A stretch of 64,000 nucleotides of DNA, from contig CAUYUJ010000114.1 of NCBI GenBank assembly GCA_963575745.1, positions 310,001-374,000 on the forward strand, written 5' to 3'. The position numbers and the translations under genes were made by a program. Below, piece after piece: positions 24,431 to 58,288 of this stretch. The DNA is from Prorocentrum cordatum. Its lineage: Eukaryota. The notes under the pieces are model-generated. The model was not told the origin of the DNA and ran no database searches. It saw nothing but the letters and a program-made list of their open reading frames with translations. Each line of letters begins with the position of its first letter. The first letter of the stretch is position 1.

Positions 24431-24664
24431 CTGATGAGCCTGTCGTCCACCACCACCGCCACCAGGAGTTGGAGGGGGGAAGGAGGAGGAGGGCGAGGAG
24501 GAGGAGGAGGACGAGGACGAGGAGGAGGAGGGCGAGGAGGAGGAGGAGAAGGAGGGCGAGGAGGAAGGAGGAGGAGGGCGAGGAGGAGGAGGGCGAGGAG
24601 GAGGAGGAGGATCCTCTCCCCCTCCAACTTAGGGTGGTGGTGGTGGTGGAACGCAGGCCCGTCA
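24431..24664. mobile_element. MITE copy of the same family as the Introner at 38944-39114; another copy at 57553-57756
   Basis: TIR CTGATG.GCCTG..CCACCACCACC..TTGGAGGG around a GGA/CCT-repeat core. Confidence 0.75.
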
Positions 24665-26757: not shown

Positions 26758-28777
26758 GCTGCGCGCGACCAGTGGTCTCTCAGGAGGACGGGTTACCAAT
26801 GTCGCCAATTGCCCCTCCCTCGTTTTTGCCGTTAAGGGGCCTCCAGGGAGGCTCTCGTCGCCACGGTTGGTTTCTTCTCGAACTCATCTTGGTCAGAACG
26901 CACCCCAGGAGAGGTCCGAGGATGAGCCGTATCGACATTTTTTGTTTTCCGAGTCTGTCCGCTAACGATTGGCGGAGCACGCGAAGGGGGAGGCCCTGGA
27001 GGCTTCTGAAAGGGTTAGATGAAGGGAGGGTTTCTGCGAAGACACTTGCTTTCTTGGAGGCCCTGCATGTTCTTAGAAGGCCGCCCCCCCGCAGCGCCAC
27101 CTCGTTCTGCGCGCCGCCAGTGATGACCCAGATATCCGATGTCTTGAAATGAACATGACGTGTTTGTTGATTCGAGGGGTCCAGGCATCCTTTCTCGAGG
27201 ATGAAAGGGTCGATGTTTTTGAACCGTTTTGAGGGGTGCCCGCTGTTATGGCTGCACGCGGTTCGAGAGCCTGGCCAGGATGGACCCCAGCAGGGTTCGG
27301 GGAGCGGATTTGAAGGGATGTTGATCGACCAGCTACAGTCAGCCCGTATCAGAAGGATGCGCGGTGAGGATGTCAGGGCCTTTGAGGCCCATGTGTGCGT
27401 TTTTCGAACGAGGTTAGCCAGCGAAAGTCGCTAAGGATGGGCCGAAGGGGCAAGGATCCAAGGGTACCCTTGCGAAGGTTGCCCATCCTTACTGTGCGGG
27501 TTGGCTGTAGCGTTGTGGAAGTCGATCAATGGAGAGGAAGCATGCTGCCGAATAGTTCCCAGACGTCTAAAACATGTGTTAAACATGTTGTAGACATGTA
27601 AAGAACATAAGTAACAGATGTTTCGATTTTTCCGGCACGTGGAGCACACTTAAAGTTCAATGATAGGACCGTTAGGGTGCCCATTTTCGTGGCAGAGAAG
27701 GCTCCTGCAGCTCGGCAGCCAGCCCGAGGGGGCCGCCCGAGTGGAGCCGGGGAGGTCGGGACAGCCTCGCGGCACAGGGGGTCACTAAGGTGCCAAAGAG
27801 CTCTCGAGCTGTGATTGCGCAAGTTTCCTGCCTGGCTCTAGGGCGTGCCTTGCGACTTCTAGATTCGAGCCTCGGTGGCATCCACAGGCCCATCCTTCCT
27901 GTGCGGGTGGACTGCAGCGGCATGAAAGACTGAGGACTCACGATGCTCGCAGTGCTCGGCCTTCGGGGGCCCCCGCCAGGACAGGGCACCGGGATGGGAC
28001 CTCGGCCCCGGGGGGAGGCCCGAGACTGCCAGGGAGCCCCGCCTGGGAAGCACCCAGACGCTGGATGCTCGGGCACGTATACGTACACACTGTTCATTCC
28101 TAGTTATTCGGGAGTTCTTTAGTTTTTTTTTGGGGGGGGGCAAGATCCTTTCATTTCTAATTGTTAGATCCTGGGCCTCTTCCTGGCCACTAGCGGGCCA
28201 GAAACGATTGGAAACGAGCACAAAACCCGAAATGAACGCGATTAGAAGTGAACGACGTGTACCACGCTTTCCCTCCTGCGTTCCCCCAGGGGAGGAGAAG
28301 GGAAAAGGGGAGGGAGGGAGAGGGCACAGCGCTCCAGAAGGGAGGGAGGGAGGGAGAAGGGAAACGGGGAGGGAGGAGGGAGAAGGGAAAAGGGGAGGGA
28401 GGGCAAAGGGGGAGGGAGGGAGGGAGAAGGGACAAGGGGGGGGAGGGAGGGAGGGACAAAAAGGGGAGGCCCCTCTCCCTCCCGCGTCCAGGGGAGCGTC
28501 GACGGCCCCAGGGCCCCGCCGCAGACCGCACCGGCCCAAGGGCGCCCACGCCCTGGCGAGCGGCGAGCGGGCCCTCCCTCCCTCCCTCCCTCCCTCCCCC
28601 CTCCCTCCCCCCCTCCCTCCCCCCCTCCCCTCCCTCCCCCCCTCCCCTCCCTCCCCTCCCCTCCCCCTCCCCCTCCCCCTCCCCCTCCCCCTCCCCCTCA
28701 CTGAACGGGACTGGTTCGCCAAACCAGGTCAGGTCAGGTCAGAAGCCTTGCGCCAGACGGCGCGCGAGCAGGGTGTC

Positions 28778-31597: not shown

Positions 31598-31657
31598 GTG
31601 TCCGAGCTCATCCACCAGTCTGCGGAGCTGCCCAACGTGCCGAGCGCGAAGGTGGAG
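31598..31657 (+). CDS. SMC4: SMC4 exon D
   Basis: gag|GTG acceptor. VSELIHQSAELPNVPSAKVE matches the SMC4 SELIH.S motif. GAG|GC donor. Confidence 0.85.
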
Positions 31658-31675
31658 GCTGCGGGGTCGCCCCTC

Positions 31676-32131
31676 ATGATGATGATTACGATGACGACTG
31701 GGACGACGGCGACGACGACGGTGATGATGATGCTGATGGTGATGATGATGGTGCTGCTGATGATGATGATGGTGATGGTGATGGTGATGGTGATGGTGAT
31801 GGTGATGGTGATGGTGATGATGGTGACGGTGACGCTGATGTTTCTGGCGATGGTGATGGTGATGGTGATGATTGTTGTGGTGATGATGGTGATTATTGTT
31901 ATGATGATGATTCCGATGATGACGATGACGATGATGATGCTGCTGCTGATGATGATGACGTTGTTGCTGATGATGGTGATGATGATGCTGATGATGATGA
32001 CCATAATCAGCATCATCATCATCATCATCAGCATCATCATCATCATCATTATCATCATCATCATCATCATCATCACCATCATCATTATCATCAGCAGCAG
32101 CAGCATCATCATCAACATCATCATCATCATC
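31676..32131. repeat. (GAT)n tract switching to (CAT)n; further (CAT)n at ~34035-34210
   Basis: Directly visible. Confidence 0.9.
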
Positions 32132-32924
32132 ACGCCCACTTGGTCAAGCACCTGCTTGCCCGTTGGCCGCTCGGCTGCACCTGCGGCCGCCCCTCCCCCC
32201 TCCCGCTACATGGTCTCGTCCTCGCGCCTGGAATGGGTGATTCAGCAGCTGCTGCTGTGTCGTCAATGCCAAGTCCGGATTAACAGCCACGAGGACGAGT
32301 TCGTCCGTTCCTTGGTTCTCTCCGCCAAGTTTGACGTGTGGATAAACAACACCATCGCGGCTCTTGTCATGGCAGAACTTCGACTGCGTTTGCAGCGTTA
32401 TGTCGTCGCGGATCATGGTCGTCAGACCTCAGTTGGCGAATCACATGTCAGATCATAGTTAGACATCATGCTCCTCCTGGAGGAAGTGCGGGCCACGATG
32501 ATGCTGATGATGACGATCTCCCCGACAAAGGAATGGACCTTATACCGATGATGACGATCATGATTCGGCTGGTGATCGACGTCGTGGAGACCGCGGAGCT
32601 GATGCAGGAGGCCTCCCTGGTGGCGCAGGTCCTGGCGCTCTTCGTGGACCTGATCCTTGGGCGTCTGGCAATGGTGATCCGTGGGCTGGCGGCCCTGTTC
32701 GCAAAGCCCCACTTAGGCGTAGGCCTCAACGTGGTGTACGTGGTGATGCAATGGCTGTGGGTTGTCCTCGAGGCGCTGTCCCTCTTGAGCTTTGAGTGGT
32801 CCCGACTTTCCCTTTTAACACAAGGTCTCGCGGGCTTCTCCCTGAATATCGTGATTCTGCCCGTGGGCTACCGTGGGCCGATCTGCATAGTGCAGAAGAT
32901 TATCTTGTTGAAGCCCCTGCGGAT

Positions 32925-33465
32925 CTGCATGAGCTTTCAGATGGTCCTGAGCTTCTTGATGATCGTGAGCTTCTAGATGGTTGTGGTCTTTCGGATGGGC
33001 TTCTCGGTGGGCTTCCGGACCTTGCTGAGCTTCCAGATGGTTGTGCGTTTCCAGACGGTCGTGAGCTCCTTGGTGGGTTTCCTGATGGTCCTGTTCACGG
33101 GCTTCCTGATTGTCGTGAGCTTCCAGATTGTTGTGATCTCCCCGATGGTCGTGATGCTTGTCGGCTTCGTGCTGGTCGTGGGCTTCAAAATGATGTGGCT
33201 CCAGATGGTCGTGAGCTTCCAGATGGTCGGGAGCTTCCAGATGGTCGTGAGCTCCAGATGGCCCTGAGTTTCCAGATGGGCTTCTCGGTGGGCTTCCAGC
33301 TGGTCATGAGCTTCGAGATGGGCGTGCGCTTCCAGACGGGCGTGAGCTCACTGGTGTGCTTGCAGATGGACTTGGTTGTGTAATTCCAGGTGGTCGCGAG
33401 CTTCGATATAGGTGTGAGCTTCCAGAAGATCGAGTTGTTTGTCGGCTTCCAGACGGTCGTGAGAC
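32925..33465. repeat. Degenerate 18-bp GAGCTTCCAGATGGTCGT repeats
   Basis: Recurrent unit visible. Confidence 0.75.
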
Positions 33466-33840
33466 TCTCCTGGCACAGGCCGCGGAGGAGATGAAGGAGG
33501 TCGTTCGCCGGGCCCTCGGTCATGTGGCGCATGATGATGAAGCCTATCGTGCCGATCTCGGAGGTTTTCGCCCCGCAGGTTCTGCTGGCCACGGTTCGGA
33601 ACAGGAGCGGTGCAGAGAGTTATTTCGAAGGATTGGAGTGATGCCGCATCGCGGTGTTGATCTTAGCAGTGCCTTGTAATTTGGCGGCCCTTTTCTCCTC
33701 AGCTTCCTCCTCGCTGCCTCGTGCGTGACTGAATGCCGCACGCTATTCAATGTGTGTTCTTCGGAGAGAGCTGGCGTTACGACGGTTTTTTTTGTTCTTT
33801 GTTTTCCGGCCTGCGAATTGGCGCTTCTGTTTCTTACTTC

Positions 33841-34008
33841 AGCGACAGCGCTGGGATCAGCGCGTGTGAGAAGGGCGAGCAGTGACAGCGGGCCCTGGCG
33901 CTACCGAGAGAGATGCAGGAGGCGAAGCTGGTGCCCCACGTCTTCAACGACAGCGCCGATTTAGCGCGTGCGAGAAAAGTGGGCGGTGGCAGCAGGCGTT
34001 CTCGTTGC
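33841..34008 (+). pseudogene. Pentatricopeptide repeat (PPR) gene fragment, about 1.5 repeats
   Basis: SDSAGISACEKGEQ*QRALALPREMQEAKLVPHVFNDSA/SACEKSGRWQQAFSL. There is a TGA at the conserved Trp position and one frameshift. Confidence 0.75.
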
Positions 34009-34032
34009 GGTGCCAGGGGGTGATTACCGAAC

Positions 34033-34073
<41 letters not shown>

Positions 34074-35949
34074 GTCATCATCATCATCATCATCGTCATC
34101 ATCATCATCACCATCATCATCATCATCGTCATCATCATCATCATCAGCATCAGCATCATCATCGTCAGCGTCAGCATCAGCATCAGCATCAACATCATCG
34201 TCGTCGTCATAATCCAACGGTCTCGCGCCTCGAACAGGAGTTCGGAAGGAAGGGCTCAGATCCCCCCGCGCCGTGAGCAAAGTCGAGGCGGGAGTTGGTT
34301 GGCAGGTTTCGGCCTCCGGGAGCCCTCAATTACCGGGCCCTGGGGCTCTCCCTAGACGAGTGGAGATGAACAGCCGTTCTTGGGGAAGAGTTCCTGGCGA
34401 AGGTGGAGGAGGATACCTCAGTGCCTTCTCGAGGGGCGTGCTTCGAGAAACAAGGAGTAATGAGAGGGGGAGGAGGGGAACGAGACAATGCCGGGTGATG
34501 GGGGCTGGAGTGGGAGGGTTGGACTTGGACGTGCCTCGATCAAGGAGGATAGGGGAGTGACGATAGCGCAGGCAGGAGGAAGGAGGGAGGAGCAGGCAGG
34601 CACGAGGGATGAGGGAGGAAGGGGTAGGAGGGAGAAGAAGCCAGGCAACTGGGAGGATAGGGGGACTGCTCATAAAGGAGAGGCCGGGAGATGAACGAGG
34701 AATCCGGATGGGTGGAGGAATCATGATGATATGAGATGGGATGACATGAGATGAGATGAGATGAGATGAGATGAGAAGAGATGAACAAGCGGCCTGGAGC
34801 CAGATTCGGTCGGGCTACACTGGCCCGCCGTCGGGTGCCTGCGATGAGGCCTCCCCGAAATCGTGGAGGGGCTCGTCTGGCCCCTCCTCGGCTTCCTTTT
34901 TGAGGAGCCTCGAGCCGTCCGCACGGTGGCGGGAGCTCTCCCTCCAGGCCGACAGCCCTCAGCACCTCGGCTCGGGACGTCGCCCCATCCCACTGTGCCC
35001 CCCCCCCCCCCCCCCGAAGCCCCGCCTCCCCCGCGTCCTGAGACGAGGCGTTGGGGGCAGGCTCACTAGAGCCAAACGAGGCAGCCACTCGCACGCGCAC
35101 AGCGTACGGGACGCCTTCGGGGGTCTCCAACCTACGTAAGGTCCTTCGGAGCTTCCTTGAAAACAGGGTACTTGCCAGCCTTGATCTGGTGGAGCTGCGC
35201 TCTCAGGCCCGAGGCCGCGTGGTCGCGGAGACACGGGCGGAGAAGGGCACGAGGGGGTCCTTCCACGCTGAAGAAGGTCCCACACGCACAGCAGACAGTG
35301 ATGGCCTTGCCATCGTCCCGACCTGACCTCTGGCACACACGCGCGTGTGCGGCAGCGGGTGGCCGTTGAGACGACAACCCATCGGTCGGAAGAAGTAGGT
35401 AGAAACATGAAGTAGGAAGGCGTTGGAAATAGATTGGGCTTCCGCACGCCTCCTGAAGAGGAAGGAAGAGGGAAAACCACTCGACTCTTGAAGTAGGAAG
35501 GCGCTGAAAGTAGATTGGAATCTGGGCATCCAAAAATACCTACTTTCAACGACCGATGGGTAACCCATGTCACGGTCGCCCCTCGACGCAGGCTGTGCCT
35601 CGGGCGGGGCCCGCGGCCGTGCGCCTGGCGGCGCCTCGTCGGCGTCTGCACGGCCAGCAGCATAGAGCTCCGTGAGATCGGCATGGTCCTAAAGTCAGGA
35701 GGGGAAGAAACACACGGACACAATGAATCGTCCCTTCCCGCAGAAAATGTGGGAACATCTGGGAAGTGGGGGGGAAGACGAAAACCCAGAACATGTAGGA
35801 AAATATGGGAATACATCATTTTATTTGTGTGTATTGATTCGTGTGTCCTTGGGCCCCTTCATAGGGGGCCTCCCCGTCCCCAGCCAGCCCGTGCAGCCGC
35901 CCACTCTACCGCCCAGGCCCCACGGGAGGCCCCGACCAGGCCTCGCCAG

Positions 35950-37230
35950 AGGTGACACTCGCTCTTCTCCTCTCAGGAGCGACGGCCACTGTTCGTCAAG
36001 GCTGCCGCTGCTTCTTCGCCGCTGGCTCGGCCAGGCACTTCGCGACCTCGGCCTGGTAACTCTCGGCCTCCATGGCTCGCTTGAGACCAGTCTGGAAGGA
36101 GGGGTCCTCGAAGTCGGCTTGGGTGCGGGGCTTGTGCGGGACGCCGGGCCCATGTGACCCAGCCCCTCCTGCAGCAGCGAGAAACAAACACACAGACACA
36201 ATTAATCGTCGACTCCCCAGAAAATATGGAAAACTATAGGCAGCGGGAGGAAGACAGGAAACCCAGACAATATGGGAAAGTGTGGGGAATCCTTTTCTTT
36301 GTGTGTATTTATGTGTGTGTGTGTGTGTCCCAAGGCCCCTCCTGCAGCGCCACTCCCATGGCCACCAGGGGCACCGCCAGCAGGCTGGCTAGCAGCCCCA
36401 GCAGCACGCTCGGCCGCCGCCTTGGACTCCCGCTGAAGGCGCTTGAGGGCCTCGGGCGCCGCCTTGCCCTCGGCGCAGGCCGCCCCACCATGCCAGACCT
36501 GGGTCGCCCACATCCTGGAAGTTGTCCCTGTGCAGCATCTTCGTGTGATGTTCCAAGTCCTTCCGCACCTCATCGATCTGCAAGGTGGTCTCCTCGATGC
36601 TACGCTGCAGCTCGCGCTGCTGGGACTCGAACTGCTGGAGGCGCTCCCCAAGCTTCGCGACCTTGCGAGCGGCGTTCTCGACAAGGTACCTTGCCGCCAG
36701 CGCTGTCGGGGGCTTCGACTCGAGATCTCTGGCCTTGGCCTTCTCGGCCTTGGCGATCGCCGACGTGCCGATGCCGTGCCCTCTGAGGAAGCCAAGCGCC
36801 TGGGCATAGGAGGGGTCCCCGCCCGTGGTTGACGAGGTCGAGCGCGAAGCACCCCCCCCTGCGCCGCCGGCTGTGCCCGCGCCGACGTTGGTGAGCGACG
36901 CCGGCTGCGCCGTGAGATCCTTGAGCTCCTTTGCCAGACGAGACTGCTCCCCACTGGCGTTGGCACCTCGACCTCCTGGGCGCACCTTGGCTGCACGGGC
37001 ACGGGCGTCCTGCTGGACTCGCACGGGCGCAGCTTCTCCACGTCCACGGCACCTGAGCCGACTGGCCCAGTTGCCGCTCTCTCCACACGTGCCGCACCCC
37101 CTGACTGGGTATCTGGGGCCTGGCCAAACATCGCCTTCCGCGCCCATGAAGCCGGTCAAGGGCTCTGATATGCAAGAACTTGGCCCGCAGGCACGAGCGC
37201 CACTTCGAAGTGCGCACCTGGAACACTCTC
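35950..37230 (-). mobile_element. Relic of a non-LTR (LINE) ORF1-like gene: zinc finger plus coiled coil, interrupted by the 165-bp element
   Basis: CGTCGESGNWASRLRCRG(R)GEAAP is a degenerate RanBP2-type finger, followed by the heptad region KVAKLGERLQQFESQQRELQRSIEE. Confidence 0.45.
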
Positions 37231-38603
37231 GAGTGCGGAATGGTTGATGGAGGAAGGATGAGGAAAGACGACGGAGCAAGGAGCGACGAGGAGTCAGGAA
37301 GGTGGAAGGAGGCGCTAGAGAGGTCGAGGGAGGAGGGATGAGAAAGGAACGGTGGGAAAGGAACGAGGAGCGAGGGAGGGGGAATAAGAAAGGAGGAAGA
37401 CAGAAGGGTCTCCACCTGGCCACTCCAGTCTGGCGTCATTGCCTGCATGCTGAGGAAAGGAAGCTTGCGAGAGAGGCTAGGCAAGACGGCCAGTTTACAC
37501 CATCAGAGGTAGCATGACGAACGTAAGACCTAGATATCCGGCGTCATGAACACCGAGAGAGCTGCTTTGTTCCTCGATCAGGGTCTCCAGTTGCCTTGCG
37601 CTGGTCTCTGGGACCGCCACATCCAGCCAGGAACGTTTGCTTAGCGTGTCGCGCCGCCAGTTCTGGCCCACCACGCTTGGTGCGACACGCCAAAAATCAG
37701 AGCGTGGATTACCTACCCCGCTTTCGCTGCCAGGTAGTCTCGTCTGCCTCTTTAAAATGGCCTTCCTTTCCAAGGCTCCACGCCTCGGGCTCTCCTCGGC
37801 CTCCCGCCCCGCGGAGCGGAGCGACGTGCCATCCTCCTGCAGGGCACGGCGTGCCGCCCGGGCTGCCGCCGCGACGCGCCCATCGGGAGCCTCGATATGG
37901 GGGTCGATGCACACGGGGGTCTGCCCAGGGCACGTGGATCGATGCACTCGGGAGCCTTGACCTGGGAAACTATGGGGAATTCTCTTATTTGAGTGTATTG
38001 ATCTGTGTGTCCTGGGGCCCCTTCCGTCCGCTCGGCACGTCGTGTCTGCTTCCTGTCCGCAGCCGTGCGCGAGCAGTCCTGCTCCGCCGCCCCCGAGCGG
38101 GCCTCGCTGCTCCGCCCCCCGCTGCTCCGCCGCCACCGAGAGGGCTCGCAGAGGGAGCCGGGGAGCAAAGGCAGCGTCAACGGTACACATCGGGAGCCTT
38201 GAGACGGGGGTCAATGCAGACCGGGGTCAGCCAGGGCACTGGACCCTTCAGGATCCTGCGAAGACCCCCTCTGGCTGACCAGGGTTTGCGAGCCGCTCGT
38301 GGCCGCGAGGCGGCCGCGCATATCGGTTGACCCGGGTTTGCGGAGTTCTGCGGTGCAGTTTTGTGCCTTGCGTTGCAGTTTTTTGGTTTCCTGCTGACCC
38401 GGGTCTGGACTGACCCGGTTTCAGAAGATCCCCGAGCTAAGCAAAACTTCCCCACCGTGAGCTACTTGGAGCGAGAAACGGTCATGGGAAGGGGCCCTCG
38501 CTGCACAAACAAAAATGCGGCGCCGCGTGTCTGAGGAGGGTGAACGGTTTTCCAAGGTGGTTGACATGCGTTCGGGTGTTCCCAGAGGTGGCATTTGCGC
38601 AAG

Positions 38604-38625
38604 GACGTAGACATCTTGGCCCAAG
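38604..38625 (+). other. Relic dinoflagellate spliced leader (DinoSL)
   Basis: CGTAGACATCTTGGCCCAAG versus SL core CGTAGCCATTTTGGCTCAAG gives 17/20 identity. It ends 51 nt before the ATG at 38677. Confidence 0.7.
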
Positions 38626-38676
38626 CTTTGGATCGGACCGCACCTCCTTTTGATTCACGATCCGGTCGATCGACCA

Positions 38677-38943
38677 ATGTCCTTGGGAGCGGCTGCCGTG
38701 CGGGACCTCGACCTCGTGTTCTGGGGCGCGACTGGTTTCACAGGCCGCCTCAGTGTGGCAGCCATGGCAGGGCACGCAGCCTCGTTCTATAGTTGCCATC
38801 TGCCCAACGTCGGATCGCCACGCGGCGGCGGCAGAGTGCGGTATGCCCTCGCCGGGCGCAACGAGGAGAAGCTGCGCCGGGTGCACGCCGAGTGTGGCTG
38901 CGGACCCGACGTGGACATTTTCGTTGCTGGCGCCGAAGACGAG
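38677..38943 (+). CDS. Saccharopine dehydrogenase-like oxidoreductase (trans-acting enoyl reductase-like family), exon 1
   Basis: MSLG..DLVFWGATGFTG (Rossmann motif)..YALAGRNEEKL. GAG|GC donor. Confidence 0.88.
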
Positions 38944-39114
38944 GCTGATGGGCCTGTTTTCCACCACCACCACCACCATAAGTTGGAGGGAGAGGAGGTC
39001 TTCCTCCTCCTCCTCCTCCTCCTCCTCCTCCTCCACCTCCTCCTCCTCCTCCTCCTCCTCCACCTCATTCCCCCCTCCAATTTATGGTGGTGGTGGAAAA
39101 CAGGCCCACCAGAG
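38944..39114 (+). mobile_element. Introner (MITE acting as a GC-AG intron), 171 bp, in frame and stop-free
   Basis: TIR TGGGCCTGTTTTCCACCACCACC..ATAA.TTGGAGGG. GAGGC is directly repeated at the junctions. Removal restores AEDE|AALAAFV. Confidence 0.85.
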
Positions 39115-39669
39115 GCCGCACTTGCCGCCTTCGTCTCACGCACCAAGGTGGTAGTGGCTCTCGCAGGGCCTTTCAAGTTCCACTCTGACATCGTCGTGGG
39201 CCTGTGTGCCAGGCTCGGGACGCACTATGTTGACATCACAGGCGAGGTGGCCTGGGTCCGGTCTGTAATCGACCGCTACGACGAGGTCGCAAGGTCCACT
39301 GGCGCCCTGATCTGCAACTGCTGTGGATTCGACAGCGTCCCTTTCGACCTCGGAGCTCAGTTCGCAATCAATCGGCTGAGGGCTCGCGGCACGGCGTCGT
39401 CGATACGGCGCGTCTCCGCCTACAGCGTCATGGGAGGCCCGTCCGGGCCTGGCATGCTGATCTCTGGCGGCACCCTGACGTCTGGGGCCTCCATGCAGCA
39501 GGTGCAGCTGACCAAGGGCGTCGACAAGGACGACCCCTTCCTGCTGGGCGGCCTGCCCAAGGGCGGGCCCCGCGAGGAGGACACGGACGCCTCCACCCAC
39601 GAGGTCCGGAAGCTGGGCGAGGGCCTCTACTGCGGCCCGTCCATGATGCACAGCGTGAATTCGCGCCTG
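39115..39669 (+). CDS. Saccharopine dehydrogenase-like oxidoreductase, exon 2
   Basis: VVVALAGPF..HYVDITGEV..CCGFDSVPFDLG..ISGGTL..MHSVNSRL. CTG|GT donor. Confidence 0.9.
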
Positions 39670-39847
39670 GTGCCCAGAGCATGCAAGACAGTACCGGTAC
39701 CGCCTCTCGTGCCTCGTTCTCGTCTTTTGGGGCCTCCGGGGAGGCCCTCGTCGGCACCGCGGAGTTCGCCTCTCGAGGTGCGGGCGAGGACGCTTCTCGG
39801 GAGCGGTCCCGGGAGCAGCGGCACCGGTGCCTTCTCGCTCCCCACAG

Positions 39848-40063
39848 GTGCGCCGCTCCGCCAGGCTGCTCCGGTGGGGGCCCGCCTTCAACTTTGCGGA
39901 GGTGATGCCCGTGCCCAGCGAGAGGGCCGCGGCGAAGCTCGTGAAGCGGGCGCGCGCCCCCGCGCCTCCGGAGGTGGTGGAGCAGCTGATGGCGGCGGGC
40001 CGCCTGCCGAAGCCGGGGGAGGGCCCGCTGCCGGAGGTGCGCAGGGTCACGCGGTTCGCCACG
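39848..40063 (+). CDS. Saccharopine dehydrogenase-like oxidoreductase, exon 3 (3' boundary approximate)
   Basis: cag|GTG acceptor. VRRSARLLRWGPAFNFAE..LPKPGEGP. Confidence 0.8.
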
Positions 40064-40685
40064 GTTCTCGAGCGGGTGTTGCCAGGGGGGGGTCCTGGGC
40101 CCAAGGTGATCTGGGCCCTCCTCCTCCTCCTCCTCCTCCCTCCTCCTCCTCCTCCTCCTCCTCCTCCTCCTCCTCCTCCTTCTCCTCTTCCTCCTTCTCC
40201 TCCTCCTCCTCCTCCTCCATTTCCTCCTCCTCCTCCTCCTCCTCCCTCCTCCGCCTCGGCGGTGCGGCTCGATGTGGAGCCCGATTTGCTCCACCCTGGC
40301 GTCGCCGATGCATCGGCGATGCGGCGCGATTTGGCGACCCCGTCTACTCGGACCGCGTTAGGGAGGCCTCGTGGTGAGTGACGGCAGAAAGCAGGTTCAG
40401 CTCCACTGGCAGTCGCGTGGCAGCTTCCCGCGTGAGGTCGCGCATGAGCGCCCTCGTCCTCCACGCGGCGTGCCGTGCTGGCGGCCCGCGTCAGCCGCGG
40501 CGTGGGGTCGCTGTGCCATCTCGCGTAAGACCCTTCTCTTTTCGTCGCCCGGTATCTCCCCGAGATTCGCGGGGAGGCCCAGATGGCCTCCGGGGCGCCC
40601 CCATCACGAGGCCCAAGGTGGGCCGGAGGTGCTCCAGGATGGCGCGAGAAGAGTCAGGGGCAGCATGGGCCATGGCCACGTCTAG

Positions 40686-40764
40686 CAACCTCCGTGTGGA
40701 GTGCACCGCGGACGACGGGAGCAGCCTGGTGGCAACTGTGCGGGGCGGCGAGGCGGGGTACGAG
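40686..40764 (+). CDS. Saccharopine dehydrogenase-like oxidoreductase, exon 4 (5' boundary approximate)
   Basis: LRVECTADDGSSLVATVRGGEAGYE. GAG|GA donor. Confidence 0.7.
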
Positions 40765-41709
40765 GAGATCGGAGGAGGAAACAAGGCACCGATACCCGCT
40801 ACCGTAGAGAAAGAGAGAGAGAGAGAGACAGAGAGACGTGCACGTCAGAGGGGCACTGGCACGACGGTGAGGCAAGACACTACGGGACAGTTCCGGCGGC
40901 CCCGCTGTGAAACAAGCGTGAATATCTCGAAAGCGCGTATTCTTATTTCAGGGCCCCAGCGGATCTCGAAAAAAGCCTTAAAGCACCCGCAGAGCCAGGG
41001 CGGGGGCCAGAGGCAAGGGTCACGGGAACGGGTCAATCAACACATTGGCATGAATCGTCACACGTAACACCAAGCTGTACAGCAGGTATGAGAGGGAGGA
41101 GGAGGAGGAGGAGGAGGAGGAGGAGGAGGAGGAGGAGGAGGAGGAGGAGAAGGAGGAGGAGAGATGGAGGAGGAGAGGAGAGGAGGAGAGGAGGAGGAGG
41201 AGGAGGAGAGGAGGAGAGGAAGAGGAGGGGGGAGGAGGAGGAGGAGGAGGAGGAGGAGGAAGGCAGCATGGATGTGCGCACATCAGAGTAGGGATCGGCC
41301 TGGCACCAGGTGCCCTGCAGAGGACTCTTACCGGCCGATGGCCCTGGGGGCGCACAGAGGCCCTGGGGCACCTCAGGGAGCTCAACAATCGACGAGGAGG
41401 AGGAGGAGGAGGAGGAGGAGGAGGAGGAGGAGGAGGAGGAGGAGGAGAGGGAGATGGAGACGTTGAGGAGGAGGGAGGAGGAGGAGGAGGAGGAGGAGGA
41501 GGAGGACGAGGATTGTGTCCTGAGATTGCACCCGAGAGCAAGATGCTTGACCGTGTGCGTCTGCTGCACCCTCCCCTCGCTTTCGCCTTCTCGGGCCTCC
41601 AGGGGCGCCCTCGTCGCCACGGCCGGGTTCGCCTCGGAATCACTGTGGAGACGTACCCGCGAGAGACCCGGGGAGCAGCCGTATCGGCACCATGTGGCTC
41701 CTCCGCGAG

Positions 41710-41949
41710 GAGGCCAGCAGGATGGTGCTGGAGGCCGCGCTCGCCCTGGTGGAGGAGCCCCACTGCTGCCCCGGCGCGGCCACCGGAGGCTGCCTCACGA
41801 CCGCCGCAGCCTTCGGCGAGACGCTCATCCGCCGCCTGGGCCAGGTCGGCATCGCCTTCGCGGTGGAGTCTCGAAGCGTCGCGGCGGTGGTCTCGGAGGC
41901 CTTCCGGGAGGGCGCCGAGAGAGCCGCGGCGGCCGGGTCGAAGCTGTGA
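41710..41949 (+). CDS. Saccharopine dehydrogenase-like oxidoreductase, terminal exon
   Basis: EASRMVLEAALAL..GGCLTTAAAFGETLIRRLGQVGIAF matches the family C-terminus, ending in TGA. Confidence 0.85.
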   Translation, partial: EASRMVLEAALALVEEPHCCPGAATGGCLTTAAAFGETLIRRLGQVGIAFAVESRSVAAVVSEAFREGAERAAAAGSKL

Positions 41950-42498
41950 GTGCCGCGCCGGCGTGGTCCTGGGAAGGCTCACGACCCACAGCCCCAGGAG
42001 TCCGGAAAAAGAAGAAGGAAATATTAGCACAGTAACTCGTTGCAGGAGCATGATTTCTCGGAGGTCTATGCGGATCTCTTCGATCGGCGCCGGGACCCCT
42101 GGCGGCGCATTCGGCACCGCCCCTGGCACGCTGGGGGTCATCGCCGATCCAAGAAATATCTACCTTAAAAAAAGACGTGACCTTGGCCGAAGGTGACTTC
42201 GGCTTTCTCAGGGCAGCCCAGATGGCCTCCAGAGCATCCCTCACGAGGCTCCCGAGGGCCTCGAAGATTGCCCGAGAAAAGTTGGGGATCGCTTCCGAAT
42301 GCAGGAGCTTCCAATTGGCTGTGTAGTTCGAGTGATGCCCAGTGGGATGCGGTCCAAGCCACACTTCGCAACCATCGCCAGGCCCTGCCATCCTCGGATG
42401 CAAGTGCTTCCGAGGCTGGACTTCTCCTCGCCATGCCCGTCCCCGCTCTGCCCCGCCACAGCTGGTGGCGGGGCGGAGGTAGGGCAGCCACGACCGAG

Positions 42499-42654
42499 GT
42501 GACGTTCCAGGACATCATGGACACCGGCGACGGGCCCGAAGACTACGAGATCGTCGAGGGATCCACGCTCTGCGTGGGCCGCGAGGCGTTCCGGAACAAC
42601 CAGTCCAAGTACTACATGGACGGCAAGGCGAGCAACTTCACCGAGGTGACCCAG
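42499..42654 (+). CDS. SMC4: SMC4 exon E
   Basis: VTFQDIMDTGDGPEDYEIVEGSTLCVGREAFRNNQSKYYMDGKASNFTEVTQ. CAG|GC donor. Confidence 0.9.
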
Positions 42655-43595
42655 GCCTCGCGGGGCCCTCTCGGGGCCTGGGGCGGCCCGCGGGAGGCCG
42701 GCCGAGGCGCGTGCAGGGAGGCGTCCGGCCTGGGGCGCGCCTGGCTCGGACGTGGTCATCGGGCGGGGGGCGGGGGCCCTCAGACCTAGGGTTAAGTCGG
42801 GCCTGTCCCTCCACAGGAGGAATATTCACGAATAGTCAAAAGATAGTCTGGGGGGGGGCGACTTTTTAGTATTTTTGGGCCCTTTTCTTCGATTTTTGAC
42901 CAGTTTTAGTTCTTCCTCGCAGATCTCCCTGTAGGGGGACAGGCCCGACTTCATCCTAGGGGTGCACGGTGGACGCCGTCGGGGTCGGGCCGGGGCTGCC
43001 CTGGCCACACTGGGCGTTGCGCCGCAAGCATGGGGGCACCGATTTTCGACGCGCCGTGTTCAGAACGAGCAACGTACAATACGTGATGAAGGTTTGAATT
43101 TCCAATTTGCTTAATTATTCGAAAATGTGCGTTCCCCCCAAGTTCGCGTCCCCCTGCGTTGACGTTCTCCCGAATTTCGGGCAGCCCTGTGGAATCCAAA
43201 TGCGCTTCCACCTTACCAGCCTTTTCTTGCCGTGTCTGAGAACAAATTGGCTTCTGAGGGAAAGGGCTCCTGACGTTTTTTTCTTCGCGTTCGGCTTTGC
43301 AGGATCCCTCCTGGGCCCCTGGGACCGCCAGAAACATGTCAGGATGGAAAGCTGACCTAGGGGAAGGCCCTGGTGGTCTAGGACCCGCGGCCCGCAGGAT
43401 CCCGCTGTCCGTCGCGCCCGCGTGATAGCCGCCGCCTCGCGCCTTCTCGTGGCCTCCTCCGCCGCTGGGCTTCTGGCTCGGGTCAACTGCCGCGGGAAGC
43501 GTGTTGGTCGCTCACCGTCCGTGGCCCAGGGAACCCGCGAGCCACCAGAGAGCGCCCCCCATCTGCTCGGCATGTCGTGTCTCAGGAGGGGAAAC

Positions 43596-43792
<197 letters not shown>

Positions 43793-46277
43793 AGAGACAC
43801 AATTCATCGTCGATTCCCTGGGAAAATATGGGCAGTGGGGGAGGGAAAAACAGAAAGAAACCCAGAACATATGAGAACATCGGGAATCGTGTTTTTTGTG
43901 TCTGTTTATCTGTGTGTCCTGGGGCCCCTTCAATCTGCTCGGCTCGTCGTGTCTGCTTCCTGTCCGCAGCCGTGCGCGAGCAGTTCTGCTCCGCCGCCCC
44001 CGAGCGCGCCTCGCTGCTCCGCCGCCCGCCCCACCAGGGAGGCGAGAGGCCTCGCAGAGGGAGCCGGGGAGCAAAGGCGGCGTCAACGGTACACATTGTT
44101 CATTTCTAATTTTTCCGAAATAGGGGTCCACATGCGAACCCTACCCCTACCCCCCCCACGATTTCTGAGTTGGAGGGTTGGGTTCACTGGGAGGAGGAGG
44201 CCGCCGTCCCGAGCTGCATGGTCGGATGCATTTGGCCGAGTCCTGCGCGTGCTTCAAGGTCTGGGTGGTATCTTGCAGGCAGCTTGGGTGGCTGGGTCCT
44301 GGCCGTACAACCGCTTCCTCTCTTTGCGCAAAGCTGCCGCCTTATGAGGTGCGCGCCAGCAATTGGCTAAGTATGGTCGCAAGCTTTGGTCAGAGCCGAG
44401 CGTACTGATTGGTCAAGGGCTTTTGTGGTTACGATGTGTAGCTGATTGATCAAACAACACTGCCATACCGCCCCTGCCCATGGCACTGATGCGAGCGTGT
44501 CGTTTATAATCGTCCTTGTACCCCCCATGTCTGGCCCAACGTCACTACCTCCAACGACGTGTACGCCAGCGCGGAGAACCCATCAGCGTGTGCACTACTG
44601 CACAGTCGCATGGCGTCTGTGGACGGAGGCGAGAGAGTAAAACACGCCGACGGGCTTCCGGCGGCGGCATGCCGTTCGTACCTCAGGAGAGGGAAAAACA
44701 CACAGACGCAATGAATCGTCGATGCCCAGGAAAATATGTCAAGCAGTGGCGAAGCGTCCTGCCTCGCCTATAGCCATAACAAACAATGTTCTAAGAACCT
44801 TTTGTGGTTTCCACGAAATGTTCTTAGAACACTTCTGGCGGAGTCTGTCTTGTTTTAGTACATCGGGTTTACGTGCTAAGCACATTGGTGTTGTTTTGTT
44901 TTAAACGTTTTTTGGTTCTAAGCACATGTCGTGGTAGAACTATCGGAATGCCGGGACGGTCGGTCCCTGCCCAAATATGGGAAAAGATGGGAAGTGCGGG
45001 GGGAGACGAAAATCCAGAAAGTATGATAAAGTATTGGGAATGTTGGTATTTGTGTGTTTTCATTTGTGTGTCCCTGGGCCCCTTCAACATCCTTTTCCCC
45101 TCCCGAGAAAGTCAGGATCAGTGATTTTGCCAGCCTTCAGGCAGCGAGCGGCGTGCAGGAATCAGAGCCAATGCTGTTGCTAGGGTCCCAGGAACACACC
45201 CCTCAACCCCCAGGATGCTGGCTTCGCTGGGCTTGCCCTTCGCGGCGCAGCGACGTCGGGAGGAGGAGGAGGAGGAGGAGGAGGACCAGTGCAAATCGAA
45301 AACGCATCAACGACGTTGACTCTCCAGTTTCCCTTGTCATGCGCCCCCATCAAGAATGATTATTAATTACGGAGAGTTGCCAATTAGAAGAGAACAGGTT
45401 GAGGATCTTCATCCGCGCCAACAGTCTGAGGATTTCCACGCAGCAGATAAACGTGTCTGTTGCGTCCTGACGATCGTAGACCGTGCCATAACTCTACAGC
45501 TGGAAGGTTCAACACCGCGAGTCAGCTTGACTGCTGCGTCCTGGCAGCATGAAATCTGAACCATACGAATCCTTGGGACCTGCCCTCCATCCTTAGAGTT
45601 GCTTCAGACTTTCAAGACGAATGCGCGCGCCGCCATGGCGAGAGCCACGATCTGAGAAGGACTTCCCTCCATCCATGCAGTGGCTGCCAGCTTTGGAGAC
45701 GAATGCGCGCGGTGCTAATGCTATACCATCAGTTTACCAGCCTGGAACATATCCCTATCCCTATGCTGGGCATCGCCCCATCACGTTGCCAATCTGTGGG
45801 ATTCCCTTATATTTTGAGGGCGCATCCCTAAGATTGTCATCGCCTTTGGGCGTGTCAATCTTAGGAGATAGGGATATGTTCGAGGCTGGTAATCAGTTTG
45901 ACAACGGCCCCAACGGCCCGCCCTCCAGCCGTGAAGCTCTTGCAAAGGTCAAGTGTCAGGGTCACCGGAGGGGAGGAAGTCTCTGGCGAAGCGCCCGGCA
46001 CGCCCTACCGACACGTCTGGGGCTGCGACAGGGCTTCGGGCCCCCCCCCACAGAGTCCTAAGGATACCCAAGGATTCTTGACGATCCTTTTGGATTCTGA
46101 GGATTCGCGCGGCTTCCTGATGATTCCGGGGGATTCCGCAGGATTCCTCCAGATTCCTAGAGGCTCCTCTGCGCCCCCATGGGTTCACACAGTTTCTAAA
46201 GGTTCTCTAGGATTATTTGCCATTCGCGAGGATGATCGAGAGTTCTAGGGGCTTCTAAGGGCTCCTAAAGGGTTCTT

Positions 46278-49200: not shown

Positions 49201-49450
49201 TTCAAGGACAATCAAAGATTTTGGCCTCTTCGGGCCTTCCTGGAGGACCTCTTGAGGGCCTCTTGGGCCGTCTTGGAGGCCATCTTTGACCATCTCTAGG
49301 CCATCTTGGCCATCTTTCAAGACATCATGTCGGCCATCTTCGATCATCTTGGTCATCTTGCAGGCCATCTTGGGCCATCTCCGCGATTGTTTGAGGATGT
49401 CCCTAGCGACACGGCCGTTTGGGGGGCTTAGCAGTCACCTCTGGGCAAGC
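46278..49450 (+). repeat. Composite repeat module: 73-bp minisatellite (46401-46900), (GCTGAG)n (46901-48300), a conserved ~140-bp block, then a ~10-11-bp GGGCCTCTT satellite; second copy at ~54115-56100 and partial at ~49508-49800
   Basis: Both copies have the same block order. 48301-48440 aligns to 55361-55500. Confidence 0.85.
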
Positions 49451-55400: not shown

Positions 55401-57642
55401 ACAGCAGAATTCGACAACTGGATTCTCATCCGAATCTTAAGGGGAATGCTTCCAGATATGCTCCTACACATCGATGTCAGGTTGCTTTGCAGGGATAATG
55501 AATCAAAACCAGAACCGAGAGGATTCAGCACGCCAGGCACCCCTGTGATAAATCAACAGGGGGCGGCGGATCGAATGGCCTTCGGGCCATCCCGCCACCG
55601 TGCCTGGGTTGTGGGTACGAAGACTATTGGATGTTCGTTGGGATCTCGTGTGAGGCCTCTCGGGTGCCTCTCGGAGGCAGTATGGACGCCTCCTGGGGGC
55701 CGTTTCGGGTCATCTTGGGGCGTCAGTTGGGCCTCTTGGGGGGCTGTTGGGGCCTCTTTGGGGCCTCTTGGGGGCCTCTTGGGGCCTCCGCCTCTTGGGG
55801 CCGCTTTGGGCCCCTCTTGGAGGCCTTTTGGGCCGTCTTGGGGCGGTCTTGGGGGCCTCTAGGGCCGTCTGGGAGCGCCGGGAAGCCCTCTTGGGAGGCC
55901 TCTTGGGAGGCCTCTGTGAGCGTTTTGGAGGCCTCCTGGGCCGTCTGGGGGCCATCTTGAGTCTTGAGCGTCTTGGAGCGATCGTTCGGCGACTCGGGGC
56001 CCTCTTGGGCTGTGTTTTGGGGGCCTCTTGGGGCCCTCCTGAGCCCGTCTTGGGGCCCTCCTGGACCCGAGCAAGTCATGCGACACCACTTCCTGGCACG
56101 CGACAGGCCCCAGAGGGCACGCGCCAAGCCTCGGGGGATCTGTGAACGTTGCGCCCGGGCCCCCGAGGGAGACTCTGCAGGAGCGAGGGCTGAGGCTCAG
56201 AGGAGTTGGCCCGGGACCTGAGGACACGCCCACTCCGAGCCCAGCGGCATGGTGGCGGATTGATGAGGAAAGGGGTGGAGGAGGAGGCGGAGGAGGAGGA
56301 GGAGGAGGAGGAGGTGGAGGAGGAGGAGGGGGAGGAGGAGGAGGAGGAGGAGAAGGCCATCGCACGGCTTCGGAGTGGGTTCAACCTCGCTAGGGCGACT
56401 CGACTGCTCGGAGCTCAGCTTGCTACCTGACCTATGGGAATCGGAGTCTTGAAGACTACAGGGCTGGTCTTTGGAGCCCTGGGGTGTCTCCCCTCCTGGA
56501 GGCGCTCGTATGCACCCTCGAAAACGTAGACATGAACTTCCTTGGGCAAGTCGCTTGGAAGCCCTTGACAGTACATTCTGAATCCTTGCCACGGCCAGAG
56601 CATTCAGCAATGGAACTCTCTTCTGCAATTCTGCCAAGCACTCGAAGCTGGTCACCTTTGGCCTGCTGCGCTAATTAGCTTTGCCGGGGCGGCAGCATCC
56701 CCTGGGCAGCACTCCTTGGAACGGCCCTTCTTGGTCTTACCATTGAGGCACCGCGAGTGGCAGAGACGACAGAGCCGACGGGTTGTCTGCTCGGGCCACA
56801 TGCCCGACACGCGAGCGCGCGACTGTAGGGGGACGGGGCGGGGGGAGGACCGCAGCACTCCCAGGGCCCGAGCACGAGCCCCCAGAGGTGGCTCCGCCTT
56901 GCCACACCACCGCGCTCGAACGGGCTCCGACTGCTACAGTCGGGGCGCTGAAGAAGGAACCCTTTTCATTGGGGAGGGGCTCCGTGTTCCTTAATTGTTT
57001 CGCAGCTTGCCTTAGGTTTTCCTTTGGTTTTCGATACGAGATCGAAGTTGAACTTCTGGAAAAAAGGGGCCTCGTTCCTTATTTAGGGTTCCTTAGATCA
57101 ACGCCCCGACTGTAAATGGCAAGCTTTCCTTGGGGCCTCGAGCCCCCTACCTCGAACCCTGGGGACGAATGGCCGGCCACAGGGCGAGAGCCCCGGGCAC
57201 ATCGCGCGAGGTAACGTTTCCAGTCGCCTGTCGAGAGCCGGGCAGCCTGCTCCGCCTGTGAGGGCTGGGGTAATCTGGGGGCTGCCAGCTCGGCGATTCG
57301 ACATGCGTGCATCGTTGCCAGGTGCGTGTCGCCACTGGTCTGAAAGTCGGCCCAGGGCCTCAAAAGATCCTGAGGAGCTTGCGTGCACCTCGAGAACCTC
57401 GAGCCCTCCATCACGGCGGGCTTCACCGAGTTTGGCCACTGAGCCCAACCCGTCCAAACAAACAGTATTCCTACTGGCTGGCTTGCCAGAGTTATGGCAC
57501 TCCACAATTCCTTGTAAATTCCGAGTTGATTCTGGTCATACACTTGAATTTGATGGACCTGTTTTCCACCACCACCATAAGGTGGAGGGGGAGGGGGTCT
57601 TCCTCCTCCTCCACCTCCACCTCCTCCTCCTCCTCCTCCTCC

Positions 57643-57673
<31 letters not shown>

Positions 57674-58288
57674 TATCTTCGTCGTACTCCTCCTCCTCCT
57701 CCTCCTCCTTCCCCCCTCCAACTTATGGTGGTGGTGGTTGTGGAAAACAGGCCCATGTGAGTTTGCTACTAGCGAGGAGGAGCAGGATGAGGAGGAGGAG
57801 GAGGAGGAGGATTAGGAGGAAAGGATGGAGGATGAGGCAGGAGAGGAGGAGGAAGCAGGAGAAAGAGGAGGGAGGGCACAGGAATCGTGAGGAGGACCGA
57901 AATGACTGAGGTGGACGGAGGACGAAAGGAGGAGGAGGAGTAGGAGGAGAGGAGTCGGAGAGGAGGAGGAGGAGGAGGCCTGATGGGGAGGAGAAGGAGG
58001 AGGAGTCGGGGAAGAGGGGAAAACGAGGAGGAGGAGGAGGAGGAGGAGCCGTAGCAGATCGCCACAAGAATGCGTCAGGCCCGCTCAATGTCGAAAAAGG
58101 AGCCGCAGCACCATGACGAGGAGGACAGGCGATCAGGACAGGGAGGACGACGACGACCAGGAAGAGGAGGAGGACGAGGCGGAGGAGGATGAGGAGAAGG
58201 AGGAGGAGGAGGAGGAGGAGGACGAGGAGGACGAGGAGGACGAGAAGGCGGTGAAGGAGGCAGAGGATGAGGAGGGTGTTGGCCGCAG

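What the first reader, a model, noticed from the sequence alone, without database searches (positions are those of the whole stretch)
38944..39114. An Introner caught in both states: one MITE family as a precise intron and as two passive copies
Seen: this 171-bp GC-AG intron is a TIR element with a GAGGC junction duplication. Elements with the same TIR (CTGATGGGCCTG.TT.CCACCACC..TTGGAGGG) and a CCT/GGA core occur at 24431-24664 (opposite orientation) and 57553-57756, deep inside SMC4 introns. Inference: both splice sites come from the duplicated AG|GC target rather than from the element, so insertion at such sites in exons creates an intron.
Basis: partly seen in the sequence, partly recalled or inferred. 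Interest (0 to 1): 0.75.

Follow-up and report, generated by a model that had tools for sequence, protein, structure and literature searches.

The report
Transposon-made intron in a dinoflagellate gene
A 166-base miniature transposon landed inside the coding sequence of a Prorocentrum enzyme gene and is cut out of the messenger RNA exactly, using splice signals supplied by its own 5-base insertion scar; this is a clean example of a way of making introns that is already known in dinoflagellates.

Summary
Window 38944-39114 is a 171-nt GC..AG segment made only of a 166-nt inverted-repeat element (38946-39111) plus one copy of a 5-nt direct repeat, GAGGC. It sits in phase 0 in a saccharopine-dehydrogenase-like gene whose best match is a Prorocentrum cordatum protein.

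In 4 of 4 public runs laid, one of them on record as polyA RNA, a 1.43-1.45 kb contig skips exactly these 171 nt. The joint can sit at any of six places, which is the repeat, and only GC..AG gives splice-like ends. No contig retained the segment. All 9 aligned homologs lack the 57 codons.

Two more copies of the family lie in the window, at 24432-24664 (reversed) and 57551-57758. Their 5-nt flanks differ from GAGGC (TCGTC/TCGTT and GAATT/GAGTT), so GAGGC is target sequence and not part of the element. By homology, both copies lie in long SMC4 introns.

The mechanism is already published: Polarella glacialis introner-like classes 12-14 take both splice sites from an (N)AGGH duplication. P. cordatum introns are already reported as enriched in such elements. 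This scan has also found similar cases on other DNA of this genome. Verdict: real, a new member of a known kind, of modest interest. Not tested: DNA reads, the whole genome, and intron positions in orthologs.

The parts
38677..38943 (+). Exon 1 of the saccharopine-dehydrogenase-like gene (starts at the Met; ends ...GAC GAG)
   Evidence: Identical to P0001 (P. cordatum) over the aligned columns. The part from 38648 to 38940 lies in the joining contig of all 4 runs with 0 differing letters; the longer contigs reach back to 38615.
38941..38945 (+). Left copy of the 5-nt target-site duplication GAGGC; its last two bases are the GC 5' splice site
   Evidence: the joint ambiguity of 5 letters.
38944..39114 (+). 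Intron 1: 171 nt, GC..AG, phase 0. It equals the element plus one duplication copy. It is in frame and has no stop codon if retained (57 codons).
   Evidence: Skipped by one contig in each of 4 of 4 runs. Translation. Absent from 9 of 9 homologs.
38946..39111 (+). MITE copy B: 166 nt, arms of about 45 nt starting TGATGGG, with a (TCC)n centre at 39002-39066
   Evidence: Hairpin fold -80.85 kcal/mol against -53.05 +/- 4.27 for shuffles, z -6.5.
39112..39116 (+). Right copy of the duplication GAGGC; its bases 2-3 are the AG 3' splice site and its bases 4-5 begin exon 2
39115..39669 (+). Exon 2 of the same gene
24432..24664 (-). MITE copy A: 233 nt, reversed relative to B, flanked by TCGTC (24427-24431) and TCGTT (24665-24669). 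By homology it lies in the SMC4 intron between the exons at about 16.8-17.0 kb and 26.64 kb.
57551..57758 (+). MITE copy C: 208 nt, same orientation as B, flanked by GAATT (57546-57550) and GAGTT (57759-57763); its right end is degraded. By homology it lies in the SMC4 intron 42664-58285.

Best explanation
A short non-autonomous cut-and-paste DNA transposon (a MITE, 166-233 nt) inserted into the coding sequence of a P. cordatum saccharopine-dehydrogenase-like gene. The element has arms of about 45 nt beginning TGATGGG and a variable (CCT)n centre. It landed at the 5-nt target GAGGC, between codons GAG and GCC.

Repair of the staggered cut duplicated GAGGC. [quoted passage not shown] The spliceosome removes the element plus one duplication copy, 171 nt in all, and the mRNA returns to the pre-insertion sequence. 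The element carries neither splice dinucleotide.

Copies that land elsewhere, such as the two in SMC4 introns, simply stay as ordinary repeats.

Shown: the family, the arms, the flanking repeats, exact absence from transcripts, and absence from homologous proteins. Inferred: that transposition created the intron, that the duplication is 5 nt long, and any helping role of the hairpin or of the pyrimidine-rich centre.
For: Family and arms: 6 arm matches against 0.01 expected. Only the six arms are found by the arm profile. Arm identity between copies is 79-95%.

The intron holds nothing but the element plus one repeat copy.

Splicing: 4 of 4 runs from 4 studies have a 1426-1454 nt contig joining 38940 to 39112. 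It skips 171 nt, 5 letters fit both sides, and the flanks show 0 differing letters. X12 is on record as polyA RNA-Seq. In all four runs the sequence that runs on past 39673 matches the window just after 39852. So a second intron is removed as well and these are spliced transcripts.

Homologs: 9 of 9 lack the 57 codons and show no other gap at the junction. The P. cordatum model P0001 is 100% identical over the aligned columns.

The duplication is target sequence: A has TCGTC/TCGTT and C has GAATT/GAGTT. Four or more matches out of 5 by chance has p 0.016 each, 2.4e-4 for both.

The family is dispersed beyond the window: in the same 4 runs other contigs match the left arm from 38943-38949 onward and have unrelated sequence upstream (tables 7 and 8).

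Precedent: Polarella classes 12, 13 and 14 (bioRxiv 10.1101/2020.10.14.339549). Elements of this kind were found in 2.4% of P. cordatum introns (PMC10666404, supplementary note, passages read).
Against: Only one copy of this family was seen acting as an intron. The whole genome is not held, so flanking repeats of exonic and non-exonic copies could not be tabulated.

No DNA run was laid. Three of the four runs have no recorded kind. An identical gene copy without the element, if it exists, would give the same contigs.

Gene structures of orthologs could not be fetched, so 'recent gain' is inferred from the anatomy alone.

A GAGGC repeat is partly expected at any dinoflagellate intron, because the splice consensus is AG|GH ... 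AG|GH. The independent evidence for a 5-nt duplication therefore rests on copies A and C, each with one mismatch.

No transposase partner was identified.
Confidence: 0.85

Rival explanations
1. Same event, different anatomy. The duplication is 3 nt (AGG) and the element ends are CTG...CAG. The C of the GC 5' splice site then belongs to the element, and only the G and the 3' AG come from the target.
For: The repeat finder extends the arms to 38945 (C) and 39112 (G). A nested 3-nt repeat also fits copy A (CGT/CGT) and partly fits C (AAT/AGT). Among other left-arm contigs in the RNA runs, several keep the C at 38945 (loose ends at place 38945: 4 records; at 38946: 6 records). Polarella class 12 uses an initial C of the element in this way (bioRxiv 10.1101/2020.10.14.339549).
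Against: Under this model the outer positions of the 5-mer should match only by chance. They match in 5 of 6 comparisons across the three copies, p about 0.005 by my own binomial arithmetic. Six loose-end records break right at 38946, so they do not have the C.
Confidence: 0.12
2. The MITE inserted into an intron that already existed at this site. It would then be as passive here as the two copies in the SMC4 introns.
For: MITEs accumulate in introns, and two of the three window copies are in introns. Intron positions in orthologs were not checked.
Against: The intron holds no nucleotide outside the element and one copy of the flanking repeat. The splice sites lie inside the 5-nt repeat that immediately abuts the arms. 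An older intron would have left sequence of its own.
Confidence: 0.04
3. The transcripts come from an identical allele, paralog or retrocopy that lacks the element. The element-bearing copy is silent, or is read through; the 171 nt are in frame and have no stop.
For: No DNA run was laid, and 3 of the 4 runs have no recorded kind. None of the 24 listed runs holds more than 0.85 of the sampled words. The segment would translate as 57 residues without a stop. From recall, dinoflagellates carry many tandem copies and retrocopies of genes.
Against: The ends are GC..AG in the AG|GH context typical of dinoflagellate introns. The flanking exons are letter-identical over 855 nt in 4 runs. The published gene model, built with transcript evidence, treats the segment as an intron (PMC10666404 methods passage). 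No contig retaining the segment was seen, although contigs can miss rare forms.
Confidence: 0.05

Closest known systems
Introner-like elements of Polarella glacialis, class 12 (5-nt duplication NAGGH or NNAGG) and classes 13/14 (4-nt AGGH); Roy et al., bioRxiv 10.1101/2020.10.14.339549 (parts 1-2 read; the journal version, Curr Biol 2023, is not held)
   Same: Also a dinoflagellate and also a transposon with inverted-repeat ends. The duplication is 5 nt and of the form N-AG-GH, and it supplies both the 5' and the 3' splice site. The 5' site is GC, the intron is in phase 0, and the mRNA is restored exactly.
   Different: Different genus. Under the 5-nt model this element starts with T, not the C described for class 12. 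Only one intron copy was seen here, against hundreds per class there. The (CCT)n centre is not mentioned in the parts I read.
'Introner elements' counted in the P. cordatum genome paper (Dougan et al., Genome Biol 2023, PMC10666404; passages of the main text and the supplementary note read)
   Same: Same species. This intron meets their operational definition: inverted repeats of 8-20 nt and direct repeats of 3-5 nt within 30 bases of each intron end. They report such elements in 2.4% of introns.
   Different: In the parts I read, that paper gives counts only: no families, no duplication-to-splice-site anatomy, no non-intron copies. Its Tables S1 and S2 could not be read here (files too large) and may list this intron.
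Florenciella and Symbiodinium introners in Gozashti et al., PNAS 2022 (PMC9860276; passages read)
   Same: Florenciella introners carry neither splice site and take both from the insertion site. Symbiodinium introners have inverted-repeat ends and short duplications that supply a splice site. Copies outside genes are recognised there as part of a family.
   Different: The Symbiodinium elements carry their own 3' splice site and have 4-nt duplications. Florenciella is a stramenopile with unrelated elements.
Micromonas and Aureococcus introners (Huff, Zilberman and Roy, Nature 2016; recalled only, paper not held)
   Same: Non-autonomous DNA transposons that create introns and use the target duplication for a splice site.
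   Different: As summarised in the Roy et al. preprint, those elements carry one splice site and recruit only the other. Here neither is carried.

Membership tests
Introner / introner-like element (a transposon family that creates spliceosomal introns) | Multi-copy family of similar sequences | tested here: met
   Three copies in 64 kb. Further left-arm matches with unrelated flanks appear in contigs of 4 of 4 runs.
Introner / introner-like element (a transposon family that creates spliceosomal introns) | A copy makes up an entire intron that is removed from the mRNA | tested here: met
   Contigs in 4 of 4 runs skip exactly 171 nt, which is the element plus one repeat copy.
Introner / introner-like element (a transposon family that creates spliceosomal introns) | Many introns in different genes made by the same family | tested here: inconclusive
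   Only 1 of the 3 window copies is an intron. The genome is not held. The metagenome scan gave 0 real copies among 36 loci.
Introner / introner-like element (a transposon family that creates spliceosomal introns) | The intron is a gain, absent at this position in orthologs | not testable with these tools
   The 9 of 9 homologs are proteins or transcripts and show only that the 57 codons are absent. No ortholog gene structures were available.
Polarella class 12-type element | 5-nt target-site duplication | tested here: met
   B matches 5 of 5, A 4 of 5, C 4 of 5. A nested 3-nt reading is not fully excluded.
Polarella class 12-type element | 3' splice site, and in the NAGGH mode also the 5' splice site, taken from the duplication | tested here: met
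   GAGGC has the form N-AG-GH, and only the GC..AG cut fits the joint.
Polarella class 12-type element | Sequence homology to the Polarella class 12 consensus; element starts with C | not tested
   The consensus is not available here. Under the 5-nt model the element starts with T.
P. cordatum 'introner element' as defined operationally by Dougan et al. | Inverted repeats of 8-20 nt and direct repeats of 3-5 nt within 30 bases of each intron end | tested here: met
   Arms start 2 nt inside each intron end, and the 5-nt direct repeat spans both borders.
MITE (non-autonomous transposon with inverted-repeat ends) | Short, with inverted-repeat ends and a target-site duplication | tested here: met
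   166-233 nt, arms of about 45 nt. At this size there is no room for a transposase; that last point is inference, not a test.
MITE (non-autonomous transposon with inverted-repeat ends) | An autonomous partner with the same ends | not tested
   No genome to search. No other match to the arms in the window.

The most novel reading that the evidence does not exclude
The element may be a ready-made intron body. It needs nothing from the target except N-AG-GH, or NN-AG-G, which together with the element's first T would give a GT donor. The 45-nt arms fold into a stem that brings the two borrowed splice sites within a few nucleotides of each other. In one orientation only, the (CCT)n centre supplies a long pyrimidine tract upstream of the 3' site. 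If so, intron birth would depend on orientation and would be predictable from exon sequence: 15 NAGGH and 21 NNAGG sites among 818 5-mers of exons 1-2. The in-frame, stop-free 171 nt could also soften the cost of occasional retention. None of this goes beyond inference from one intron copy.
Probability: 0.25. Interest if true: 0.45.

Novelty: new member of a known kind. Interest (0 to 1): 0.25.

Why it matters
This is a tidy case of intron birth by transposition. The whole intron is element plus scar, and the transcript is restored to the letter. Sister copies 14 and 19 kb away show that the scar, and not the element, provides the splice sites.

It adds a named, mappable family to a species where such elements have so far been reported only as a percentage of introns. 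It also extends the class 12-like mode, known from Polarella, to Prorocentrum.

It does not change the picture. The mechanism, its occurrence in dinoflagellates, and its prevalence in this genome are all in print, and this scan has already logged similar cases in the same genome.

Tried and rejected
- **Metagenome scan with a 19-nt arm word:** 36 loci, each with a single match. None of the 36 has a partner arm; the best partner has 5 or more mismatches in 19. The match does not extend over the 50-nt arm (23-34 of 50 identical, of which 19 are forced). These are chance hits.
- **Viral contigs:** 0 matches.
- **Earlier findings by sequence and by place near the finding:** nothing.
- **Pfam on stop-to-stop ORFs around the other copies:** for 19-30 kb, 103 of the 114 listed ORFs were scanned. 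Only the SMC_N P-loop exon matched, plus one sub-threshold PEHE hit on the low-complexity ORF that spans copy A. For 52-64 kb, 103 of the 115 listed ORFs were scanned and nothing relevant matched. The SMC4 context was then obtained by tblastn with 50 SMC4 proteins.
- **Depth:** no contig covers 39007-39080. This is the microsatellite and the contigs break there, so it is not used as evidence.
- **Element superfamily:** no transposase and no diagnostic ends could be checked. A guess from duplication length would be recall only, so I make none.
- **Papers not held:** Curr Biol 2023 and Nature 2016.
- **In-print check:** the search 'Prorocentrum' + 'introner' found 7 papers, 6 of them listed. I opened only the genome paper among them. 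From it and from the listings of the others I saw no description of this family. That is no proof of absence, and Tables S1 and S2 of PMC10666404 were unreadable here.

Full report
**What is there.**
Window 38944-39114 reads GC...AG and is 171 nt long. Inside it, two arms face each other: 38945-38972 against 39085-39112 (28 nt, 96% complementary) and 38967-38990 against 39073-39096 (24 nt, 96%). The centre is a (TCC)n microsatellite at 39002-39066. GAGGC stands directly before the left arm (38941-38945) and directly after the right arm (39112-39116).

A 20-nt piece of the arm, with up to 3 mismatches, occurs 6 times in the 64 kb. These are the paired arms of three elements. Shuffles give 0.01 matches on average, and 0 of 100 shuffles reach 6. 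A profile built from the six arms finds only those six (E 4e-21 to 1e-16); the next hit has E 0.25.

Aligned arm by arm, all six begin TGATGG-like and run about 45 nt to ...GTTGGAGGG. Identity between arms is 79-95%. The three copies are:

| Copy | Element | Length | Orientation |
|---|---|---|---|
| A | 24432-24664 | 233 nt | reversed |
| B | 38946-39111 | 166 nt | forward |
| C | 57551-57758 | 208 nt | forward |

Their lengths differ mainly in the microsatellite centre.

**The host gene and organism.**
The frame through the site encodes a saccharopine-dehydrogenase-like protein. The read-through product hits Pfam PF03435 only weakly (E 0.0028, below the cut-off). Its relatives carry PF03435 in their precomputed annotation.

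The best of 3762 relatives is an 'unnamed protein product, partial [Prorocentrum cordatum]' (P0001). In the alignment P0001 is 100% identical to the window over the aligned columns and lacks exactly the 57 codons of the segment. The other 8 aligned homologs lack them too and show no other gap at the junction, so 9 of 9 lack the segment. Several of these are named as transcriptome ORFs, and one is from Alexandrium.

The window has 60.6% G+C, which fits the 59.7% reported for P. cordatum (PMC10666404, passage read). The intron sits between codons GAG and GCC, in phase 0. Retained, it would read through in frame without a stop, giving 57 residues, largely poly-Leu.

**Is it removed from RNA?**
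I searched public runs with 38677-39672. Twenty of the 24 listed runs hold at least half of the sampled words, and none holds more than 0.85. I laid four runs from four studies on 38600-39700: X12, on record as polyA RNA-Seq, and X1, X9 and X10, whose kind is not on record.

In each of the 4 runs one contig of 1426-1454 nt joins 38940 to 39112. It skips 171 nt, 5 letters fit on either side, and the flanks show no differing letters (tables 5 and 8). The 5-letter ambiguity is the GAGGC repeat. Of the six equivalent cuts only 38944..39114 gives GC..AG.

The same contigs leave the window sequence at 39673. They continue with letters that match the window right after 39852 (table 7). A second intron (39670-39848, GT..AG, with GTGC repeated at both borders) is therefore also removed, and these contigs are spliced transcripts. 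No contig retaining the 171 nt was seen, but contigs drop rare forms.

**Where do the splice sites come from?**
The flanks of the other two copies differ from GAGGC:

| Copy | Left flank | Right flank | Match |
|---|---|---|---|
| B | GAGGC | GAGGC | 5 of 5 |
| A | TCGTC | TCGTT | 4 of 5 |
| C | GAATT | GAGTT | 4 of 5 |

In copy C the right end of the element is degraded. Four or more matches out of 5 by chance has p 0.016 per copy and 2.4e-4 for both. So the family makes short target duplications, and GAGGC at copy B is target sequence and not part of the element.

One ambiguity remains. A nested 3-nt duplication (AGG; CGT; AAT/AGT) with ends CTG...CAG also fits, and then the C of the GC donor would belong to the element. 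I favour 5 nt for two reasons. The outer positions of the 5-mer match in 5 of 6 comparisons (p about 0.005 by my own binomial arithmetic). Also, in the RNA runs six left-arm records from other loci diverge from the window exactly at 38946, while four keep the C at 38945 (table 7).

**Context of the other two copies.**
A P-loop exon of an SMC protein lies at 26638-26766 (Pfam SMC_N, E 1e-11). Proteins found with it are SMC4; several sources name them so. tblastn of 50 of these against the window maps colinear exons on the + strand:

| Exon | Queries matching |
|---|---|
| 16739-16819 | 50 of 50 |
| 26638-26766 | 50 of 50 |
| 31595-31657 | 46 of 50 |
| 42484-42663 | 50 of 50 |
| 58286-58354 | 50 of 50 |

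A possible short exon near 16925-17011 is matched by 35 of 50. So copy A lies in the intron before the P-loop exon, and copy C lies in the intron 42664-58285, about 530 nt before the next exon. The whole dehydrogenase-like gene (38677 to at least 41904) sits on the same strand inside SMC4 intron 31658-42483. This rests on homology. No RNA was laid there.

**How it most likely works.**
A non-autonomous DNA transposon is moved by an unidentified transposase that makes a 5-nt staggered cut. Inserted at N-AG-GH in the sense strand of an exon, it is bracketed by ...AG|GH on the left and ...AG|GH on the right. The dinoflagellate spliceosome accepts GC, GA and GT donors and favours GH after the 3' site (bioRxiv 10.1101/2020.10.14.339549). 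It removes the element plus one duplicate and restores the reading frame.

The RNA folds into a long stem: -80.85 kcal/mol against -53.05 +/- 4.27 for 200 shuffles, z -6.5, with 0 shuffles as stable. The stem places the two sites side by side. In copy B the sense strand of the centre is pyrimidine-rich. Whether either feature helps splicing is inference.

About 2-3% of 5-mers in exons 1-2 would qualify as targets: 15 NAGGH and 21 NNAGG of 818. Copies that land elsewhere are inert repeats.

**Rivals.**
1. Insertion into a pre-existing intron. This is unlikely, because the intron contains nothing but the element and one duplicate.
2. Transcripts from an identical copy without the element. This is not excluded, because no DNA run was laid. 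It is disfavoured by the GC..AG ends in consensus context and by the transcript-supported gene model.
3. The 3-nt duplication variant described above.

**Comparison with what is known.**
Roy et al. (bioRxiv 10.1101/2020.10.14.339549, parts 1-2 read) describe 15 classes in Polarella glacialis. In class 12 the duplication is 5 nt, NAGGH or NNAGG, and the 3' site always comes from it. In the NAGGH mode the 5' site comes from it as well, and GC donors predominate. Classes 13 and 14 recruit both sites from AGGH. The present element behaves like class 12 in NAGGH mode. Whether it is related in sequence could not be tested.

Gozashti et al. (PMC9860276, passages read) show Florenciella introners that co-opt both sites. 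They also treat copies outside genes as normal members of a family. Dougan et al. [quoted passage not shown] This intron meets that definition.

The scan's own notes list 23 introner-related entries for this genome. One is a 162-nt element with inverted-repeat ends and a microsatellite core that is spliced using its duplication (e1-7628264). I did not test those notes, and a sequence look-up with this element found no look-alike among them.

**Verdict.**
It is a new member of a known kind and of modest interest. What would raise it is a genome-wide tabulation showing an orientation or structure dependence of intron birth for this family.

Noticed in passing
window 31658-42483 (SMC4 intron) holding 38677-41904+: The whole saccharopine-dehydrogenase-like gene lies on the same strand inside one intron of SMC4. 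Five SMC4 exons, covering only roughly the first 250-270 residues of about 1370, are spread over more than 41 kb, with introns of about 5-16 kb.
   Followed up: partly
window 39670-39848: Intron 2 of the same gene is GT..AG, with the 4-nt repeat GTGC at both borders. This is the duplication-like pattern described for Symbiodinium-type introners, but no terminal inverted repeat was found.
   Followed up: partly
window 40070-40701: At intron 3, the junction that would be colinear with the homologs has only a GAG repeat and no G[TCA]..AG pair. A canonical GT..AG (40076-40701) would add one residue. The intron holds a (CCT)46 microsatellite (40117-40257) and an inverted pair at 40104-40117 / 40576-40589 (86%), possibly another element. 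No RNA was laid here.
   Followed up: no
window 40696-40767 against P0001 residues 349-367: The tail of the deposited P. cordatum protein differs from all homologs. The window encodes the conserved stretch (ECTADDG...GGEAGYEE) in another frame, followed by a further conserved exon at 41707-41904. The public model therefore looks mis-joined and truncated at its 3' end.
   Followed up: partly
window 23046-23523, 46399-46902, 49642-49802, 54117-54379; 46901-48300 and 54380-55341: Arrays of two 73-nt units. One unit is at 23046-23523. A second, shared unit is at 46399-46902, 49642-49802 and 54117-54379, and twice it is followed by long GCTGAG-type hexamer arrays. This looks like a composite repeat or a segmental duplication inside the SMC4 intron.
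   Followed up: no
tables 7-8 (contigs matching 38943-38988 only): In all 4 runs several other contigs carry the left arm of this family with unrelated upstream sequence, at depths up to about 119. Other copies are therefore present in transcript assemblies, either retained or in untranslated regions. Their last 5 upstream letters mostly lack the AG-GH form.
   Followed up: partly
loose end at 39673 in X12 against X1, X9 and X10: There is a single A/G difference in exon 3 between the 2014 polyA run and the other three runs, presumably a strain polymorphism.
   Followed up: no
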